NCBI GenBank assembly: GCA_023473785.1
Contig: JAMCYD010000001.1
Coordinates: forward strand, 1 to 48,486
DNA: 48,486 nucleotides
Direction of reading: 5' to 3'
Origin: Patescibacteria group bacterium
GTDB taxonomy: Bacteria; Patescibacteriota; Microgenomatia; Levybacterales; UBA12049
The translations under genes were made by a program, and so were the position numbers. This document shows positions 43,236 through 48,486 of the stretch, piece after piece; within the stretch, counting starts at the first letter, position 1, and each line of letters begins with the position of its first letter. Below the pieces are notes generated by a model. It was given only the letters and a program-made list of their open reading frames with translations. It was not told the origin of the DNA and did no database searches.

Positions 43236-44894
43236 ATGACAAATAACTTTCTTAGGAAAGGCCTCAGTATTCTAGTTTCTCGCCAGACCAACATTTTAAC
43301 TGCTGCTTTTATTATCATGGCGACCATCCTTCTTTCTCAGGTGCTAGGACTTGTCAGACAAAGACTTTTGGTTGCAATCTTTGGGGCGTCAGACATATTG
43401 GGAGTATATCTTGCATCATCAAGGCTTCCAGATTTTTTATTCCAACTTGTTATTGCAGGAGCTCTTTCCTCTGCATTTATTCCGGTCTTTTCCGATTATT
43501 TAGGGAAACAAAAATACGAGGAAGCGCATAGGGTTGCATCTACTCTTCTTGTTCTGGGGTTAATCTCTTTTTCGATACTTGCAGTTATACTTTTTATTTT
43601 TGCAGGTGTTTTTTCAAAGATGATGGCTCCGGGCTTCTCAAGTGAACAAATAACAATGATGGCCACTCTTATGAGAATAATTATCATTGGTGAATTGTTT
43701 TTTATTGTCGGCAGCTTTTTTTCGGCTGTTCTTCAATCGTACAATCATTTTTTTATTCCAGGAATCGCTGCAGCGCTTTATAATCTTGGAATGATTATCT
43801 CCATTATAATTTTTTACCCACTGGCTGGAATTTTCTCAGCAGCTTACGGGGTAATACTTGGAGCATTTATTTTTGTTGTTATTCAGTTGCCGCTAATAAA
43901 AGATGTCAAATTTGCTTTTAAGCCATCTTTCTCCATCAAGGAAAGCGGAATTATTCAAGTAGTAAAACTTATGTGGCCGAGAACCCTATCAATTGCAATC
44001 TTTCAGCTAGGTACCGTAATAACTGTTACCTTAGTTTCTTTCTTGCCATTTCCCGGCAGAAATTATGTAATTTTCGATTATGCCCAGACACTCGCTTTTG
44101 CGCCCGTTGTTCTTTTCGGTCAGGCAATAGCTCAGGCTGCTTTTCCAGTCTTATCAAGGGAAAAAGATAAATTAGAAGATTTCAAAACAACTTTTATTAC
44201 GAGTTTTAATCAGATGCTTTATCTGGTGCTTCCAATATCTGTCCTTTTTTTTGTCCTTCGTATTCCAATCGTGCGACTTATCTATGGAGCAGCTCAATTC
44301 GATTGGGGAGCAACAGTTCTAACCGGAAGAACCCTTGCCTTTTTTAGCCTGTCTATTTTTGCCCAGTCTCTTACCTATTTAGTCTCTCGAGGTTTTTATG
44401 CACTTCATGACACCAAAATTCCTCTTATCGTTGGGACAGCAACGACAATACTTATGATTGGTCTTGGAGCGCTATTTATTTTTGTAAATCATCTGGGAGT
44501 AGAAAGTCTGGCAATTGCTTTTTCAATCGCAAGTATTGCTAATCTATTAATTTCTTTTTTCCTACTTGATAGAAAAATAGGAGGTTTTAGAAAATCCACA
44601 TTGCTTTTTTCAATTGCAAAAATTTCTCTTGCCACAATTTTTACCGGTCTTGCTCTTTATGTCCCGATAAAACTTTTGGATAAGTTAGTTTTTGATACAA
44701 CCAAGACCATAAATCTGATCCTTTTAACAGGAGTATCAAGTTTCCTGGGACTCTCTCTTTATCTTTTTCTAACCTGGCTTTTTGATGTGAAAGAAGCCTC
44801 AACTTTTCTTCTGATATTTAGAAAAATTGGCAACTGGAGAGAAATACTTAGGAGAAGCGAAGAAGCCATCGACGGAACAAGTTTTAAGGTGTGA
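43236..44894 (+). CDS. murJ: Lipid II flippase MurJ/MviN
   Basis: 552 aa with about 14 TM segments. The N-terminal GLVRQRLLVAIFGAS......A.RLP and SAFIPVF patterns are typical of MurJ. Confidence 0.9.
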   Translation: MTNNFLRKGLSILVSRQTNILTAAFIIMATILLSQVLGLVRQRLLVAIFGASDILGVYLASSRLPDFLFQLVIAGALSSAFIPVFSDYLGKQKYEEAHRVASTLLVLGLISFSILAVILFIFAGVFSKMMAPGFSSEQITMMATLMRIIIIGELFFIVGSFFSAVLQSYNHFFIPGIAAALYNLGMIISIIIFYPLAGIFSAAYGVILGAFIFVVIQLPLIKDVKFAFKPSFSIKESGIIQVVKLMWPRTLSIAIFQLGTVITVTLVSFLPFPGRNYVIFDYAQTLAFAPVVLFGQAIAQAAFPVLSREKDKLEDFKTTFITSFNQMLYLVLPISVLFFVLRIPIVRLIYGAAQFDWGATVLTGRTLAFFSLSIFAQSLTYLVSRGFYALHDTKIPLIVGTATTILMIGLGALFIFVNHLGVESLAIAFSIASIANLLISFFLLDRKIGGFRKSTLLFSIAKISLATIFTGLALYVPIKLLDKLVFDTTKTINLILLTGVSSFLGLSLYLFLTWLFDVKEASTFLLIFRKIGNWREILRRSEEAIDGTSFKV

Positions 44895-45994
44895 TGAATA
44901 GAAAACTAACCTACAGCCAAGTTGGCGATGACTACGATAATATAAAAGACCCCGTTAAAAAACTTGCGCAGAAATTTGCAAAATCCACAACAATTAATCT
45001 CACAAAGAAAGGATTTAAGGAGGTTTCGGAAACCAGAGGTGAGTCAGCTTATGTCTGGCAACAAGGCGATATTTACATGGCTTTTGCTGTCGAAGGACTT
45101 GGTACAAAAAATTTAATTGCAGACAAGATAGATGCAGGAGAAAAATATTATCAATCAATTGCTCACGATACGGTAGCAACCATAATCAATGATCTCGTTT
45201 CTGTTGGCGCAAGTCCGCTTGTCTTAAATGCATATTGGGCAATTCCTAATAACAATTGGTTGGAAAACAAAAAAAGAATTGATAGCTTAATCCTCGGCTG
45301 GAAAAAAGCCTGTGATATTGCAGGTGTTTCCTGGGGCGGAGGAGAAACAGCCACTTTAAATGGGATTATAAAAAATGGAACAGTTGATTTAGGCGGAGCA
45401 GCTGTTGGAATTATAAAAAATAGAAAAAGATTATTGATAGATACGAATTTAAAAACAGGTGATAGAATCGTTCTTCTTAAAAGTAATGGCATTAATTCCA
45501 ATGGAATTTCTTTGGTTCGCGCACTGGAAAAAAGACTTCCAAAAGGTTACTCCACAAAACTTAAAAACGGAAAGCTCTTCGGCGATGAGGCCTTGAGAAA
45601 ATCCAATATTTATGCAAAATTAATCAATCGGATTTTAGATTCAGGAATAAGACTTCATTACATTTCAAATATAACAGGGCACGGACTTCGCAAGATAATG
45701 AGATCGGAAAGAAATTTTATATACGTAATTGAAGAGATCATAGAGCCTCCTGGGATCTGTAATTTTATCCAGAAAAAATTAAGACTCTCGGATTACGAGA
45801 TGTATCAAACTTTTAATATGGGAATGGATTACGCGCTCTTTGTTGATAAAGAAGATGTAGATAAGACCTTAGGTGTTGTAGAAAAAGAAGGATTTTCAGG
45901 AATTAATGCTGGATATATTAAGATAGGAAAAAGACAAGTCCTAATACAGCCCAAAAATATTGCCTATGGGGGAAAAACTCTTGATTTAAGATAG
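44891..45994 (+). CDS. AIR synthase-related (PurM-like) protein, divergent
   Basis: It is colinear with PurM: EGLGTKN vs DGVGTK, INDLVSVGASPL vs VNDLVVQGAEPL, GGETA, SNGINSNGISLVR vs SSGPHSNGYSLVR, and YQTFNMG vs YRTFNCG. The N-terminal DAGVDID is changed to VGDDYD. The GTG/ATG start overlaps the murJ stop (GTGATGA). Confidence 0.75.
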   Translation: MMNRKLTYSQVGDDYDNIKDPVKKLAQKFAKSTTINLTKKGFKEVSETRGESAYVWQQGDIYMAFAVEGLGTKNLIADKIDAGEKYYQSIAHDTVATIINDLVSVGASPLVLNAYWAIPNNNWLENKKRIDSLILGWKKACDIAGVSWGGGETATLNGIIKNGTVDLGGAAVGIIKNRKRLLIDTNLKTGDRIVLLKSNGINSNGISLVRALEKRLPKGYSTKLKNGKLFGDEALRKSNIYAKLINRILDSGIRLHYISNITGHGLRKIMRSERNFIYVIEEIIEPPGICNFIQKKLRLSDYEMYQTFNMGMDYALFVDKEDVDKTLGVVEKEGFSGINAGYIKIGKRQVLIQPKNIAYGGKTLDLR

Positions 45995-45999
45995 CTTGA

Positions 46000-46008
46000 T
46001 GATATAAT
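46000..46008 (+). promoter_or_regulatory. Extended -10 TGATATAAT, 7 nt before ATG 46016
   Basis: TGATATAAT-TCTTTCT-ATG. Confidence 0.5.
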
Positions 46009-46015
46009 TCTTTCT

Positions 46016-46966
46016 ATGAAAAATGCTATTGAAGGATCGAACAGCGGAACGCCCGCAATGGAATACCAGGAAGGTACTATTGTACCGATGGTAGATCTAG
46101 AAATCTCAGGAGAATGTAATTTGCATTGTCCAACTTGTTGGGGCACTCCTCCTGATATGCGTCAAGAACATGAATTTTCCGACTGGCTAGCAATGCTTGG
46201 AAAGCTAAAAGCCAGTTACGGTCTAGAGAGTATTGCTCTAACCGGAGGAGAGCCTTTGATGATCCCCGGTATTGATGGATTCATTGAAGAAGCACATGAA
46301 GAGGTTGGTCTAAATATCAACTTACTAACCAACGCAGTCTTTTTGGGAGAACATTTCTCAACGGTAAAGCCTCACCTTTCTTCTCTTTCGATTCCTCTTG
46401 ATGGCTCAACTGAGGAAATTAACAGAAAATCCAGAGGCAGAGATCATTATCAAGTTGCTGTTGACTGGATAGCACGTCTTAGTCGAGAGCACCCGGAGCT
46501 GCCTTTAAAAGTTGGTACAGTTGTATCCGCAGCAAATTTTTCAGATATACGTGATATAGGGGAAGTTTTGCTGGCTCAGGGATTTGGAGACCGCGTTTCT
46601 AATCCCGGTACTTGGAAGTTATATCAAGCAACTGCTTTTGGCGCACAGCAGGAAAGTCCCATATGGAGAGCAAGGGGAGTTACAGGTCAAGATTTTGATC
46701 AATTAGTTCAACAAGCTGTTGATAGATTCCAGGGGAGAATTAACGTTACGGGTTTATCGACGAGTGAGGTTGGTGGATATTGCATTATAGTGAGACCAAA
46801 TGGAAATGTAGTAACTAACTCTTTACAGGACGGAAGAGAGCATCTTCTAGCTACAAATATATTTGAGGATACTGAAGGAGCAATGGAATCTATAGCAGCT
46901 TATCACGTAAAAACTCGAGGTGTTCAAAGGATGGCGACTTCATATCTGTCTCAAGGCTTACACTAG
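46016..46966 (+). CDS. Radical SAM protein, viperin-like (candidate prokaryotic viperin)
   Basis: The CX3CX2C cluster is GECNLHCPTCWG. GGEPLM is present. LSIPLDGSTEEINRKSRGR aligns with viperin AISCDSFDEEVNVLIGRG. KVGTVV aligns with KINSVI. WKLYQ aligns with WKVFQ. GYCIIVRPNG aligns with SYLILDEYMRF. This alignment was made from memory of the human viperin sequence. Confidence 0.7.
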   Translation: MKNAIEGSNSGTPAMEYQEGTIVPMVDLEISGECNLHCPTCWGTPPDMRQEHEFSDWLAMLGKLKASYGLESIALTGGEPLMIPGIDGFIEEAHEEVGLNINLLTNAVFLGEHFSTVKPHLSSLSIPLDGSTEEINRKSRGRDHYQVAVDWIARLSREHPELPLKVGTVVSAANFSDIRDIGEVLLAQGFGDRVSNPGTWKLYQATAFGAQQESPIWRARGVTGQDFDQLVQQAVDRFQGRINVTGLSTSEVGGYCIIVRPNGNVVTNSLQDGREHLLATNIFEDTEGAMESIAAYHVKTRGVQRMATSYLSQGLH

Positions 46967-47030
46967 CTTAATTACTACAAGAAACCATGACATAGAAGAA
47001 GTCATAGATTGAGTAATTTGCAAAGAATCC

Positions 47031-47039
47031 TGATATAAT
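47031..47039 (+). promoter_or_regulatory. Extended -10 TGATATAAT, 9 nt before ATG 47049
   Basis: TGATATAAT-TTCCCCATT-ATG. Confidence 0.5.
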
Positions 47040-47048
47040 TTCCCCATT

Positions 47049-47606
47049 ATGAACAAGGATAAAATAATAAAAATTGCCTTTGTTGGGACAAGCTCGACAG
47101 GAAAAACTACTCTTCTTTGGGAATATAAAAAGAAGATGAGTGGGAATCGCTCTATAGTATTTGTCCATGAAGCAGCAAGAGATTTTTTCAAGGAAAATCC
47201 TCATATTACAGAAAGATTTGCAAAGGAAATTCAAGGACAAGTGCAATCCGCTGTGCTTGCGAGAGAACAAGAAGCTCACAACTCAGGTGCGAGAGTAATT
47301 ATTTGTGATAGGTCTGTTATAGATGCTGTTGTTTATGTAAGATCAACAGGAGATAGAAAGGGAGCCAAGGAGTTATTGGAAAAAGTTAAATTTTGGATTC
47401 CAACCTATACTAAGTTCTTGCTTCTAAATCCTGTCGATGTTAAGTACGAAAAAGATGAAGTTAGGCAAGAAGATGAAAATACAAGACAAGCTTTTCATAA
47501 AGCATTCTTGGAATTTTTCAAAGAAACAAGAATTCCATATGAATTACTTAGCGGTTCGATTGAGCAAAGAATTAAAAGAGTAGATAGGCTAATTGGAATG
47601 ATATAA
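47049..47606 (+). CDS. P-loop NTPase of the AAA_28 / NadR-C-terminal kinase type (putative nucleoside or nucleotide kinase)
   Basis: Walker A is VGTSSTGKTTL. VHEAAR and ICDRSVIDAVVY (Walker B/lid-like) are present. The protein is 185 aa. Confidence 0.65.
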   Translation: MNKDKIIKIAFVGTSSTGKTTLLWEYKKKMSGNRSIVFVHEAARDFFKENPHITERFAKEIQGQVQSAVLAREQEAHNSGARVIICDRSVIDAVVYVRSTGDRKGAKELLEKVKFWIPTYTKFLLLNPVDVKYEKDEVRQEDENTRQAFHKAFLEFFKETRIPYELLSGSIEQRIKRVDRLIGMI

Positions 47607-47635: not shown

Positions 47636-48486
47636 ATGGAACAAAATAATATTAGGAATTTTGCGATCGTGGCTCATATTGATCATGGTAAATCGACATT
47701 GGCAGACCGCATTATGGAGATATGCGGTGCCATCGGAGAAAAACACCAGGAGCAAATATTAGATAGTCTTGAGCTTGAGAGAGAGCACGGGATAACTATA
47801 AAACTTAAGGCGATAAGATTAAATTATAAGGGGTGTCAGTTAAATCTTCTTGATACTCCGGGTCATGTTGATTTTTCCTACGAGGTCTCAAGATCCCTGG
47901 CATCTGTTGAGGGAGCGCTATTAATAGTTGATGCAACACAGGGAGTTCAAGCTCAAACTCTTTCCAATTTTAACCTGGCGATTAATGCCAAGCTGACACT
48001 TATTCCTGTTATCAACAAAATTGATATGCCGCAAGCAGACGTTTTAAAAACAACCCAGGAACTAATGGATTTAGGATTCAAGGAAAATGAAATTATAAAA
48101 GTCTCTGCCAAGACGGGAGAAAATGTTGAAAAATTGCTTTCGGAAATTATTGAAAAGATACCACCTCCTCAAAAAATCGCAGATAAACTTTCAGCTCTTG
48201 TCTTTGACTCAAGTCTCGATCCCTACAAGGGAGTAATTGCTACAATTAGGCTTTTTGGAGGATCTATAAAGGCTGGAGACGAAGTCTTATTTATGGCAAC
48301 GAAAGCAAAAGGACAAGTCTTACAAGTTGGTTTCTTAAATCCCAAACCAGATTATATACCAAATTTACAAGCAGGCGAGGTTGGTTTCATTGCCACAAAT
48401 ATAAAAGATTTGTCTCTTGTAAAAGTAGGAGATACTATAGTTCATCCCAAGGAAATTATGAATCCACTGCCGGGCTATCAAGAGGC
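47636..48486 (+). CDS. lepA: Translation elongation factor 4 (LepA), N-terminal 283 codons; the gene continues past the window end
   Basis: IRNFAIVAHIDHGKSTLADR (G1), DTPGHVDF (G3) and NKID (G4) are present. It is not in the ORF track because no stop codon lies in the window. Confidence 0.92.
   Translation, partial: MEQNNIRNFAIVAHIDHGKSTLADRIMEICGAIGEKHQEQILDSLELEREHGITIKLKAIRLNYKGCQLNLLDTPGHVDFSYEVSRSLASVEGALLIVDATQGVQAQTLSNFNLAINAKLTLIPVINKIDMPQADVLKTTQELMDLGFKENEIIKVSAKTGENVEKLLSEIIEKIPPPQKIADKLSALVFDSSLDPYKGVIATIRLFGGSIKAGDEVLFMATKAKGQVLQVGFLNPKPDYIPNLQAGEVGFIATNIKDLSLVKVGDTIVHPKEIMNPLPGYQE

What the first reader, a model, noticed from the sequence alone, without database searches (positions are those of the whole stretch)
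46000..47606. Viperin-like radical SAM enzyme paired with an AAA_28/NadR-type kinase: candidate antiviral nucleotide-modifying module
Seen in sequence:
- The 316-aa ORF at 46016..46966 has the CX3CX2C radical SAM cluster (CNLHCPTC) and GGEP.
- Beyond the generic core, it is colinear with animal viperin through the C-terminal extension: DGSTEEINRKSRGR vs DSFDEEVNVLIGRG, WKLYQ vs WKVFQ, TGQDFDQ vs IGDEEFE, and GYCIIVRPNG vs SYLILDEYMRF.
- The next gene, 82 nt downstream, is a 185-aa P-loop protein (GTSSTGKTTL, DRSVIDAVVY) of the NadR-C-terminal/AAA_28 kinase type.
- Each gene has its own TGATATAAT box 7-9 nt before its ATG.

Established knowledge: viperins convert NTPs to 3'-deoxy-3',4'-didehydro chain-terminator nucleotides. 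Prokaryotic homologues act in anti-phage defence and have been reported next to nucleotide kinase genes.

Inference: this pair could be a defence module in a genome type that usually carries very few defence systems. The kinase family (NadR-like rather than CMP/UMP kinase) and the divergent PurM-like gene immediately upstream would make it an unusual variant.
Basis: partly seen in the sequence, partly recalled or inferred. Interest (0 to 1): 0.7.

Follow-up and report, generated by a model that had tools for sequence, protein, structure and literature searches.

The report
Viperin-like radical SAM gene, orphan
A small-genome (CPR) bacterium carries a rare radical SAM enzyme that has the fold of the antiviral enzyme viperin but belongs to an unnamed sister family, and the kinase gene next to it is an ordinary backbone gene rather than a conserved partner.

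Summary

The radical SAM protein is viperin-like along its whole length. Viperin is its top NCBIfam and PADLOC hit and its top Foldseek hit (TM 0.72-0.82, C-terminal extension included). It shares viperin's WKxxQ and Y..P.G...N motifs.

It is not a viperin. It scores 71.8 bits against a 180-bit cutoff, while true pVips score 243-302. It lacks the invariant N-x-H motif (D-L-E instead) and several other invariant residues. It branches outside the viperin clade, inside a large unnamed family.

The kinase pairing is not conserved. Relatives keep the AAA_28 gene at the same backbone position (MurJ/PurM-like ... AAA_28-LepA-GroES/EL) without the radical SAM gene. The 93%-identical radical SAM gene has no kinase beside it. 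Each gene has its own promoter box, and that box is genome-wide.

Relatives elsewhere do sit with nucleotide enzymes: a dNK-NUDIX operon on E. coli plasmids, NUDIX fusions, and NMNAT-like genes plus a catalytic-His-less HMG-CoA-reductase-like gene (one fusion). The substrate is probably a nucleotide. An antiviral role is unproven.

The parts
46016..46966 (+). Radical SAM enzyme, 316 aa. It belongs to a rare clade (called F1 here) within an unnamed sister family of viperin.
   Evidence: ORF. Pfam PF04055. Top hit NF038283 viperin at 71.8 bits, below the 180 cutoff. PADLOC pVip 79.6 bits. AF2 pLDDT 84.5. Foldseek top hits are viperins, TM 0.72-0.82.
46115..46138 (+). CX3CX2C [4Fe-4S] cluster motif (C34, C38, C41). 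It is preceded by D27-L28-E29 where viperins have N-x-H.
   Evidence: Invariant in the family alignment. Residue map against 11 viperins.
46244..46255 (+). GGEP SAM-binding motif (residues 77-80).
46613..46627 (+). WKLYQ motif (residues 200-204). It aligns with viperin W246-K247-V-F-Q250, and MoaA has H-I-R-F-I-E at these positions.
46778..46819 (+). Beta-8 segment YCIIVRPNGNVVTN (Y255-N268). It aligns with the pVip SY.M..P.G.(F/V)..N segment. N268 falls at the nucleobase-contacting position (mouse C314, Asn in pVips). C256 is invariant.
   Evidence: The role of the position comes from bioRxiv 10.1101/2023.09.13.557418.
46000..46008 (+). Extended -10 box TGATATAAT, 7 nt upstream of the radical SAM ATG. 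A leaderless transcript is likely.
47049..47606 (+). AAA_28 P-loop nucleoside/nucleotide kinase, 185 aa. It is a backbone gene of Microgenomates-group CPR genomes and a neighbour, not a demonstrated partner.
   Evidence: Pfam AAA_28 100.9 bits. 84 homologue clusters. Same position without the radical SAM gene in L030-35. Fold closest to thymidylate and deoxynucleoside kinases. Profile hit to the NadR ribosylnicotinamide kinase domain 6gye.
47031..47039 (+). Extended -10 box TGATATAAT, 9 nt upstream of the AAA_28 ATG. This gene has its own promoter.
44891..45994 (+). PurM-like (AIRS/AIRS_C) gene, a backbone gene upstream of the variable slot.
   Evidence: Syntenic in L001, L006 and L030-32.
47636..48486 (+). 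LepA (5' part, running off the window), the backbone gene downstream.
   Evidence: Sequence. Synteny with LepA in L001 and L030-35.

Best explanation
The gene at 46016-46966 encodes a catalytically competent-looking radical SAM enzyme. It belongs to a rare clade (F1) inside a large, unnamed sister family of viperin (F2).

Shown:
- It has the viperin architecture, a partial barrel closed by a C-terminal extension.
- It keeps the cluster and SAM motifs.
- It keeps part of viperin's nucleotide pocket: R194, K220, W246, K247, Q250, the P-x-G turn and the pVip-type Asn of the beta-8 loop (mouse numbering).
- It consistently replaces N77-x-H79 (D-L-E), K120, N122, S180, S183, N222 and R245.
- It is a stand-alone gene sitting in a variable slot of a conserved CPR backbone: MurJ - PurM-like - [slot] - AAA_28 - LepA - GroES/EL.
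- The AAA_28 kinase is a backbone gene with its own promoter, so the pair is not a conserved module.

Inferred: the enzyme binds a nucleoside or nucleotide-type substrate. 5'-deoxyadenosyl radical abstracts a ribose hydrogen, which starts a viperin-type dehydration or a related transformation. Because half of the viperin pocket is changed, the substrate or product probably differs from CTP/ddhCTP. The invariant C256 or Y255 may act as the hydrogen or electron donor. The nucleotide inference rests on partners of relatives: a dNK + NUDIX operon, NUDIX fusions, NMNAT-like genes and a PRTase. Whether the product serves defence or metabolism is open.
For: Fold: Foldseek top hits are viperins over about 300 columns (TMq 0.72-0.76, TMt 0.77-0.82); SkfB reaches TMt 0.56 and MoaA aligns at rmsd 7.5.

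Profiles: viperin is the top NCBIfam and PADLOC model, aligned to model positions about 250 of 281. All 134 wider relatives hit the viperin model, and none reaches its cutoff. hhalign against viperins gives 99.75% and 239 columns, against 168 core-only columns for MoaA. The best full-length tblastn hits in annotated plasmids are pVips.

Residues: map. Only 4 conserved Cys, so no auxiliary cluster.

Outside the viperin family: calibration; NJ tree with viperins monophyletic in 77/100 replicates and F1 nested in F2.

Backbone versus insertion. Own promoters.

Nucleotide-linked partners of relatives.

Rarity: 3 of 185,579 species-representative genomes; about 10 clusters at 90% identity.
Against: - No biochemical data exist for any member of F1 or F2.
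- The profile margin over SPASM-type maturases is modest (hhalign 187.5 against 171), and SkfB is the best single-sequence PDB hit.
- Several viperin triphosphate and ribose-contact positions are changed, so the substrate may not be a nucleotide at all.
- In the crown group that includes the window, neighbourhoods are heterogeneous and say little.
- The HMG-CoA-reductase-like association could point to lipid or CoA chemistry instead.
- The tree is a rough NJ on saturated distances.
Confidence: 0.55

Rival explanations
1. One reading: the radical SAM gene and the AAA_28 kinase work together as an antiviral viperin-kinase module. The kinase supplies NTP substrate and the radical SAM enzyme makes a ddh-nucleotide chain terminator.
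For: - The fold and top profile hits are viperin-like.
- PADLOC pVip models match at E 6e-23.
- The kinase has a thymidylate/deoxynucleoside-kinase fold, like the kinases next to true pVips.
- An AAA_28 paralogue also adjoins the radical SAM gene in L006.
- F2 relatives on E. coli plasmids form a radical SAM - dNK - NUDIX operon among TA and recombinase genes.
- The distribution is patchy and cross-domain, with integrase, NACHT or T4SS genes near some homologues.
Against: - AAA_28 orthologues occupy the same backbone position without any radical SAM gene and are far more widespread (84 clusters against about 10).
- The 93%-identical radical SAM gene has no kinase beside it.
- The L006 AAA_28 is only 32% identical over 93 aa and is convergent.
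- All three CPR loci lie in one syntenic block, so they count as one event.
- The two genes have separate promoters.
- The protein fails the viperin cutoff and lacks N-x-H, K120, N222 and R245.
- The surroundings are housekeeping genes, not a defence island.
Confidence: 0.15
2. The enzyme is one step of a dispersed pathway that builds or modifies an NAD- or CoA-like dinucleotide. The other steps are an NMNAT-like adenylyltransferase, a catalytic-His-less HMG-CoA-reductase-like oxidoreductase and a NUDIX hydrolase. In the window lineage these partners lie elsewhere in the genome or have been lost.
For: - Four independent deep-branching F1 lineages have the radical SAM gene next to or fused with an HMGR-like gene, with an NMNAT-like gene adjacent or within 5.5 kb; two also have NUDIX.
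- The partner HMGR-like copies share loss of DAMG and His381.
- The NMNAT-like partners keep GRFQPxHxGH.
- The D-x-E motif is shared by crown and deep F1 members.
- NadR joins NMNAT and AAA_28-type kinase domains, and the window's AAA_28 best matches the NadR kinase half.
Against: - The window holds no HMGR-like, NMNAT-like or NUDIX gene.
- The six crown-group contexts lack them.
- Canonical HMGR sits in tandem in two loci, so some of the adjacency may reflect a local duplication history.
- No chemistry has been demonstrated.
Confidence: 0.15
3. It is a peptide (RiPP) or protein-modifying radical SAM maturase of the SkfB/SPASM type.
For: - SkfB is the best single-sequence and profile hit among PDB sequences.
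- hhalign against a SPASM-type trio scores 171 over 246 columns.
- An ATP-grasp-like gene adjoins the radical SAM gene in L001 and L006.
Against: - There are no auxiliary-cluster cysteines; only C34, C38, C41 and C256 are conserved.
- There is no SPASM or twitch Pfam hit.
- The PDB sequence matches cover only the core, residues 15-185.
- SkfB is a poorer fold match than viperin (TMt 0.56 against about 0.8).
- No precursor-peptide gene is evident.
Confidence: 0.05
4. It is a housekeeping MoaA-type cofactor-biosynthesis enzyme.
For: MoaA models match the core at 45 bits.
Against: - There is no Mob_synth_C domain and no second cluster.
- hhalign against MoaA covers the core only.
- The family is extremely rare, in 3 of 185,579 species genomes.
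- MoaA has H-I-R-F-I-E at the positions aligned with WKLYQ.
Confidence: 0.02

Closest known systems
Viperin / prokaryotic viperins (pVip; NCBIfam NF038283; 'SAND', the radical-SAM nucleotide dehydratase making ddhNTPs)
   Same: - Same overall fold, including the C-terminal extension.
- Same CX3CX2C, GGEP and TN motifs.
- Same D182, R194, K220, N229, W246-K247-x-x-Q250, P-x-G turn and pVip-type Asn at the nucleobase position.
- Single-domain protein of about 300 aa with a patchy, cross-domain distribution.
   Different: - Scores 71.8 bits against a 180 cutoff; true pVips score 243-302.
- N77-x-H79 is replaced by D-L-E. K120 becomes S/G, N122 becomes A, S180 becomes P, S183 becomes G, N222 becomes G and R245 becomes V/T.
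- The Tyr302 register is ambiguous, with an invariant Cys beside it.
- It lies outside the viperin clade.
- It is not in a defence island, and its kinase neighbour is a backbone gene.
Unnamed 'D-motif' family F2: about 280-aa radical SAM proteins with (V/I)D-x-x-x-T-x-x-CNLxCxFC(W/F)GP and WKLYQ, including the E. coli plasmid radical SAM - dNK - NudI operon
   Same: - Shares the Asp in place of viperin Asn77, P127, G130, WK(L)YQ and the Y..P.G segment.
- F1 nests within it in the tree.
- Members all hit viperin models below the cutoff.
   Different: - F1 has its own signatures: CWGTP..M.Q, T.FGA.Q, GGYCII.RPNGNVV.NS and Y-H...RG at the C-terminus.
- F1 keeps the pVip-type Asn268, which F2 lacks.
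- F1 partners are HMGR-like and NMNAT-like genes rather than dNK.
Ophion OpnA (a radical SAM enzyme in an anti-jumbo-phage system with PHP and PRTase partners)
   Same: It is described as related to pVips but phylogenetically distinct from them (bioRxiv 10.1101/2025.09.30.679545). One F1-related locus (L020) has a PRTase immediately upstream of the radical SAM gene.
   Different: No OpnA sequence was available to compare. No PHP gene was seen. The window has no PRTase.
NadR ribosylnicotinamide kinase domain / AAA_28 (PF13521), for the neighbouring gene
   Same: Full-length AAA_28 match at 100.9 bits. Best NCBIfam match is the kinase half of NadR. The family profile hits NadR structure 6gye over residues 10-162. 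Homologues are labelled nicotinamide riboside kinase by IMG.
   Different: It is a stand-alone 185-aa protein without the NMNAT or HTH domains. It scores 34.8 bits against a 341 cutoff for TIGR01526. By fold the closest solved structures are thymidylate and deoxynucleoside kinases. Its substrate is unknown.
SkfB / SPASM-twitch radical SAM maturases
   Same: They give the best sequence scores over the radical SAM core.
   Different: There are no auxiliary-cluster Cys and no SPASM domain, and the full-length fold match is poorer.

Membership tests
Viperin / pVip (NF038283) | Radical SAM core: CX3CX2C cluster motif and GGEP SAM motif | tested here: met
   C34, C38, C41 and G77-G-E-P80 are invariant. 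PF04055 E 1.3e-14.
Viperin / pVip (NF038283) | Score at or above the curated family cutoff (180 bits) | tested here: not met
   71.8 bits. Controls: true pVips 243-302 bits; MoaA and SPASM proteins 45-71 bits; other F1 members 58-79 bits.
Viperin / pVip (NF038283) | Full-length fold: partial barrel closed by the C-terminal extension | tested here: met
   AF2 pLDDT 84.5. Foldseek top hits 9dfw, 9dfn and 6q2p, with TMt 0.77-0.82 over about 300 columns. The feature is as described in bioRxiv 10.1101/2023.09.13.557418.
Viperin / pVip (NF038283) | N-x-H motif before the first cluster Cys (mouse N77, H79), invariant in the 11 viperins compared | tested here: not met
   D27-L28-E29 in all 11 F1 sequences. 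Asp in 101 of 133 F2 sequences.
Viperin / pVip (NF038283) | Conserved basic/polar pocket residues K/R120, N122, R194, K220, N222, R/K245 and K247. They are invariant or nearly so in the 11 viperins. Their triphosphate-binding role is from my own knowledge of the 6Q2P structure. | tested here: not met
   Kept: R194 (R140), K220 (K165), K247 (K201). Changed: K120 to S/G, N122 to A, N222 to G, R245 to V/T. The full set is therefore not met.
Viperin / pVip (NF038283) | Conserved Tyr (mouse Y302), the proposed proton/electron donor (PMC9642334) | tested here: inconclusive
   hhalign pairs Y255 with it. MAFFT pairs the invariant C256 with it. F1 has one extra residue between this Tyr and the P-x-G turn. 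No coordinates were available to settle the register.
Viperin / pVip (NF038283) | Beta-8 loop nucleobase-contacting residue (Asn in most prokaryotic viperins; C314 in mouse) | tested here: met
   N268 is invariant in F1 and aligned with the Asn of all 6 pVips. The role is from bioRxiv 10.1101/2023.09.13.557418.
Viperin / pVip (NF038283) | Placement inside the viperin clade in a phylogeny | tested here: not met
   In the NJ tree the viperins are a separate split in 77/100 bootstraps, and F1 nests in F2 with P0025 and P0027. The method is rough.
Viperin / pVip (NF038283) | Production of 3'-deoxy-3',4'-didehydro-NTP; anti-phage activity | not testable with these tools
   Requires enzymology and phage challenge.
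Viperin-kinase module (pVip associated with a nucleotide kinase) | Linkage of the radical SAM gene and the kinase gene conserved across homologues | tested here: not met
   There is no AAA_28 next to the radical SAM gene in L001, L002, L005, L008, L009, L016, L018, L020 or L025. AAA_28 orthologues are at the same backbone site without the radical SAM gene.
Viperin-kinase module (pVip associated with a nucleotide kinase) | Kinase of the NMP-kinase (CMPK2/thymidylate kinase) or dNK type (bioRxiv 10.1101/2023.09.13.557418) | tested here: inconclusive
   The fold is closest to thymidylate and deoxynucleoside kinases. Pfam Thymidylate_kin scores only 21.3 bits against 27, and AAA_28 is the family match. 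pVip-adjacent kinases hit Thymidylate_kin and dNK, and AAA_28 only weakly.
AAA_28 (PF13521) kinase family | Full-length match above the gathering score, with a Walker A P-loop | tested here: met
   100.9 bits against 27, over model positions 1-164 of 164. GTSSTGKT P-loop.
NadR ribosylnicotinamide kinase (TIGR01526) | Equivalog-level score and NMNAT + kinase architecture | tested here: not met
   34.8 bits against 341. Only the kinase half (model positions 165-317) is matched.
SPASM/twitch radical SAM maturases | C-terminal Cys-rich domain binding auxiliary Fe-S cluster(s) | tested here: not met
   Only four conserved Cys, at positions 34, 38, 41 and 256. No PF13186 hit.
MoaA | C-terminal Mob_synth_C domain with a second cluster | tested here: not met
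   No PF06463 hit. hhalign covers only residues 23-194.

The most novel reading that the evidence does not exclude
The F1 radical SAM enzymes define an undescribed nucleotide-modifying pathway. In it a viperin-like radical enzyme works with a neofunctionalised HMG-CoA-reductase-like oxidoreductase (catalytic His replaced by Asp or Asn, DAMG motif lost), an NMNAT-like adenylyltransferase and a NUDIX hydrolase. Together they would make or recycle a modified NAD- or CoA-type dinucleotide, serving either as a new antiviral antimetabolite or as a cofactor variant. In the CPR lineage of this window the adjacent NadR-type kinase would feed the same pathway with the mononucleotide.
Probability: 0.15. 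Interest if true: 0.8.

Novelty: new variant of a known kind. Interest (0 to 1): 0.45.

Why it matters
Automated annotation: viperin is one of the few immune enzymes shared by all domains of life. This work delimits a large unnamed sister family that defence-annotation HMMs match well (PADLOC pVip E 6e-23 here and 1e-30 for the E. coli plasmid member) but that NCBI's curated model rejects. Such genes may therefore be over-called as viperins in automated defence surveys, including surveys of CPR and DPANN genomes. I could not check PADLOC's calling thresholds.

Chemistry: the family's consistent active-site changes (D-x-E for N-x-H, loss of three pocket residues) and its recurrent nucleotide-enzyme partners suggest different radical nucleotide chemistry that is worth testing.

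This window: the practical message is negative. The kinase adjacency is backbone synteny and not a module.

Tried and rejected
1. I tried to read the viperin structure papers and Bernheim 2021 for residue roles, by DOI and PMC id. None is held. Residue-name searches gave nothing useful. Residue roles are therefore my own knowledge, and only their conservation was tested here.
2. The Biopython NJ with bootstraps timed out and was replaced by a numpy NJ.
3. Viral collections: there is no F1 member on IMG/VR contigs. The F2 alignment was too diverse for the pattern scan. BFVD fold hits are only generic radical SAM proteins. The phage GenBank tblastn gave only weak core hits.
4. The genome and metagenome scans added only one new F1 locus.
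5. Compositional test for recent transfer: the gene is not anomalous, with GC3 0.297 against a mean of 0.309.
6. No convincing terminator lies between the two genes.
7. MoaA and SPASM-maturase readings were considered and rejected on missing domains and cysteines.
8. Source names for F2 members are generic.
9. No literature was found on a radical SAM-dNK-NUDIX or radical SAM-HMGR-like system.
Full report
**1. Observation**

The radical SAM ORF is at 46016-46966 (+), 316 aa, with CNLHCPTC at residues 34-41 and GGEP at 77-80. The P-loop ORF is at 47049-47606 (+), 185 aa, 82 nt downstream. Pfam gives Radical_SAM (E 1.3e-14) and a full-length AAA_28 match of 100.9 bits. The upstream gene has AIRS and AIRS_C domains and scores 182 bits to purM, below the 236 cutoff.

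TGATATAAT boxes lie 7 and 9 nt upstream of the two start codons. The box is a genome-wide feature, though. TGNTATAAT occurs 16 times against 2.8 expected (no shuffle out of 100 reached 16), and 13 of the 16 lie 6-12 nt before a start codon, LepA's included. The boxes therefore show that the two genes are transcribed separately, probably as leaderless mRNAs. They do not mark a module.

The context is a Patescibacteria (CPR) contig. The window is the whole 48,486-bp NCBI contig. The surrounding genes are housekeeping: PilO/PilN-like, S20, MurJ and LepA.

**2. How viperin-like is the radical SAM protein?**

Evidence for a specific relationship:
- Viperin is the top NCBIfam model (NF038283, 71.8 bits, aligned to model positions 5-250 of 281). 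The PADLOC pVip models match at 79.6 and 72.5 bits.
- Among annotated plasmids, the best and longest tblastn matches (query residues 26-289) are PGAP-annotated pVips. MoaA-type hits cover only the core.
- An AlphaFold model built from 11 family sequences (pLDDT 84.5, pTM 0.86) finds viperin structures first in the PDB: 9dfw, 9dfn, 9dgw and mouse 6q2p. TMq is 0.72-0.76 and TMt 0.77-0.82 over about 300 columns. SkfB reaches TMt 0.56 and MoaA aligns at rmsd 7.5.
- hhalign of the family against 5 vertebrate viperins plus 6 pVips gives 99.75% probability and E 3e-27 over 239 columns (query 25-283).
- The shared WK(L/V)(Y/F)Q motif has no counterpart in MoaA. The beta-8 segment (GYCIIVRPNGNVVTNS against, for example, SYLMIGPNGSVIKNSN of the M. 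hollandica pVip) includes the Asn that contacts the nucleobase in most prokaryotic viperins.

Cautions:
- Against PDB sequences, only the core is matched, and SkfB (56 bits) outranks viperins at 35-37 bits.
- hhalign against three SPASM-type proteins scores 171, not far below the 187.5 for viperins; MoaA scores 104 over the core only.
- A score of about 70 bits on the viperin model can also be reached by unrelated radical SAM proteins, although not as their top hit and mostly over the core.
- The viperin relationship therefore rests on the combination of evidence and not on any one score.

**3. It is not a viperin**

- True pVips score 243-302 bits on NF038283, whose cutoff is 180. The window protein scores 71.8 and other family members 58-79.
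- I mapped positions that are invariant in all 11 viperins; my recalled mouse numbering proved self-consistent.
  - Kept: C84, C88, C91, N85, GGEP, N158, D182, R194, K220, N229, W246, K247, Q250, the P-x-G turn and Asn314.
  - Consistently changed: N77 to D, H79 to E, K120 to S/G, N122 to A, S154 to N, S180 to P, S183 to G, N222 to G and R245 to V/T.
  - Tyr302, the proposed proton/electron donor, corresponds either to Y255 (hhalign) or to the invariant C256 (MAFFT). The family has one extra residue in this stretch, and I could not resolve the register without coordinates.
- A deep profile search found only about 4 clusters at 50% identity in the tight family (F1). Scores then drop to a large set of about 280-aa proteins (F2), which share (V/I)D-x-x-x-T-x-x-CNLxCxFC(W/F)GP, WKLYQ and G.Y.FI.P.G.
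- All 134 proteins scanned (the window protein plus 133 F1/F2 relatives) hit the viperin model, and none reaches its cutoff; the best is E 2.5e-46.
- In a rough NJ tree the viperins form their own split in 77/100 replicates, and F1 nests in F2.
- Only four Cys are conserved, so there is no SPASM/twitch cluster. There is no MoaA C-terminal domain.
- F1 is rare. It comprises about 10 clusters at 90% identity, occurs in 3 of 185,579 species-representative genomes, added one metagenome locus, and is absent from viral contigs.

**4. The kinase pairing**

The neighbourhoods of radical SAM homologues are as follows.

| Locus | Identity to window protein | Neighbourhood |
|---|---|---|
| L001 | 93% | MurJ - PurM-like - radical SAM - (408-aa ATP-grasp-like gene, minus strand) - LepA; no kinase |
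| L006 | 70% | MurJ - PurM-like (split) - AAA_28, then the radical SAM gene convergent; this AAA_28 is only 32% identical over 93 aa to the window's |
| L002 | 68% | F420/NADP-oxidoreductase-like gene |
| L005 | 55-56% | nucleotide-sugar / glycosyltransferase cluster |
| L008 (archaeon) | 56% | ribosomal operon and an integrase |

Conversely, the AAA_28 protein has 84 homologue clusters across the Microgenomates group of CPR bacteria. Its orthologues occupy the same backbone position without a radical SAM gene:
- PurM-like - PurN-like formyltransferase - AAA_28 - LepA - ... - GroES - GroEL (L030-32).
- MurJ - AAA_28 - two unknown genes - LepA (L033-35, Levybacteria).

The AAA_28 and PurM-like genes are therefore backbone, and the radical SAM gene occupies a variable slot. 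The three CPR loci are one syntenic block, so they count as a single event. The gene is not compositionally foreign.

The kinase model (pLDDT 92.4) is closest to thymidylate and deoxynucleoside kinases. Its profile also hits the NadR ribosylnicotinamide kinase domain. It is most simply a salvage kinase. Functional cooperation with the radical SAM enzyme cannot be excluded, and I rate it at about 0.15-0.2, but conserved linkage does not support it.

**5. What the relatives indicate**

Deep-branching F1 lineages show a recurrent cluster.
- P0026 is a radical SAM - HMG-CoA-reductase-like fusion. An overlapping NMNAT-like gene follows it, and NUDIX and an epimerase lie divergently upstream.
- P0025 sits between an NMNAT-like gene and two HMGR genes.
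- P0010 sits between an NMNAT-like gene and HMGR plus NUDIX.
- L025 has HMGR-like genes on both sides and an NMNAT-like gene 5.5 kb away.

The radical-SAM-adjacent or fused HMGR-like copies keep Glu83, Lys267, Asn271 and Asp283. They have lost the DAMG motif, and Asp or Asn replaces the catalytic His of GHMxLH. The canonical tandem copy in L018 retains both motifs; the L025 upstream copy retains a DAMG-like motif, but its ORF ends before the His region (residue roles are my own knowledge of P. mevalonii HMGR). The NMNAT-like partners keep GRFQPxHxGH.

In the wider family F2:
- Two unrelated E. coli conjugative plasmids carry a tight operon of radical SAM (LDFRITSHCNLGC, WRFYQ), then a Pfam dNK kinase, then a NudI-type NUDIX that matches PADLOC PDC-S07. 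The operon lies among toxin-antitoxin, recombinase and IS genes.
- Other F2 members are fused to NUDIX (P0068, P0101).
- The P0027 locus has a PyrE-like PRTase beside the radical SAM gene. This recalls the Ophion system, whose radical SAM enzyme is 'related to but distinct from' pVips.

These associations are the main reason to infer a nucleoside or nucleotide-type substrate for the whole D-motif family, the window's enzyme included.

**6. Mechanism**

Shown: an intact radical SAM core, a viperin-type closed barrel, and a partly conserved nucleotide pocket.

Inferred: reductive SAM cleavage, hydrogen abstraction from a ribose, and a dehydration-like or related step. The substrate or product differs from CTP/ddhCTP because N-x-H, K120, N222 and R245 are replaced. 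Y255 or C256 would act as donor.

Not known: the substrate, the product and the biological role.

**7. Verdict**

I classify the gene as a new variant of a known kind, with moderate interest. The most novel reading my evidence does not exclude is a radical SAM / HMGR-like / NMNAT-like / NUDIX pathway for a modified dinucleotide. It deserves experimental follow-up but is poorly supported for this particular window.

Noticed in passing
window, 16 sites (for example 4845, 17767(-), 18505(-), 20241, 23981, 27297, 46000, 47031, 47618): The extended -10 box TGNTATAAT is about 6-fold enriched (16 against 2.8 expected). 13 of the 16 boxes lie 6-12 nt upstream of a start codon with no room for a Shine-Dalgarno sequence. 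Leaderless or near-leaderless mRNAs seem to be the rule in this CPR genome.
   Followed up: partly
L018:2781-3956(-), L009:6918-8078(-), L016:6001-8049 (C-terminal half), L025:7506-8750(-): The HMG-CoA-reductase-like genes next to or fused with F1 radical SAM genes are a distinct subtype. The DAMG motif is degenerate and the catalytic His of GHMxLH is replaced by Asp or Asn. Canonical-type HMGR copies sit in tandem in L018 (3968-5263) and L025 (4951-6021). The subtype looks like a neofunctionalised paralogue.
   Followed up: partly
L039:4992-7002 (E. coli plasmid NZ_CP027324.1) and L040:4992-6989 (NZ_CP045714.1): A tight three-gene operon of a viperin-like F2 radical SAM, a deoxynucleoside kinase and a NudI-type NUDIX (PADLOC PDC-S07 match) lies among TA, recombinase and IS genes on conjugative plasmids. 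PGAP does not annotate it as viperin. It is found in only 1 of 5,426 complete E. coli genomes at the DNA level. It is a candidate undescribed defence-like module.
   Followed up: partly
L001:7001-8227(-) and L006:40-552(+): A 408-aa protein with no Pfam match but an ATP-grasp-like C-terminus replaces the AAA_28 gene between the radical SAM gene and LepA in the 93%-identical relative. A fragment of the same family lies upstream of the radical SAM gene in L006.
   Followed up: partly
window 44891-45994; L030:640-2477: A divergent PurM-like gene is conserved next to MurJ in these CPR genomes. In one relative a PurN-like formyltransferase follows it. These are isolated purine-pathway-type genes in a lineage that, from general knowledge, usually lacks de novo nucleotide synthesis.
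   Followed up: no
L006:2253-3350(-) and L006:593-1642(+): In the 70% relative the PurM-like gene is split into 256-aa and 98-aa ORFs. The radical SAM ORF has an aberrant 349-aa C-terminus that overlaps the AAA_28 gene. These may be frameshifts or pseudogenisation, or assembly errors.
   Followed up: no
L020:4132-8943: Four radical SAM genes (one with SPASM) and a PyrE-like phosphoribosyltransferase are clustered around the F1-related P0027 gene. The radical SAM + PRTase combination recalls the Ophion system.
   Followed up: no
P0068 (435 aa), P0101 (434 aa): These are F2 radical SAM proteins fused to NUDIX domains, N-terminal in one and C-terminal in the other.
   Followed up: no
L022, L024 (GCA_964390595.1, GCA_964477485.1): Contigs carrying F1 genes are titled 'uncultured Gammaproteobacteria bacterium'. 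L024 has the CPR-type synteny (MurJ, PurM-like, S20, PilO) seen in the window, so the label is probably wrong for at least that assembly.
   Followed up: no
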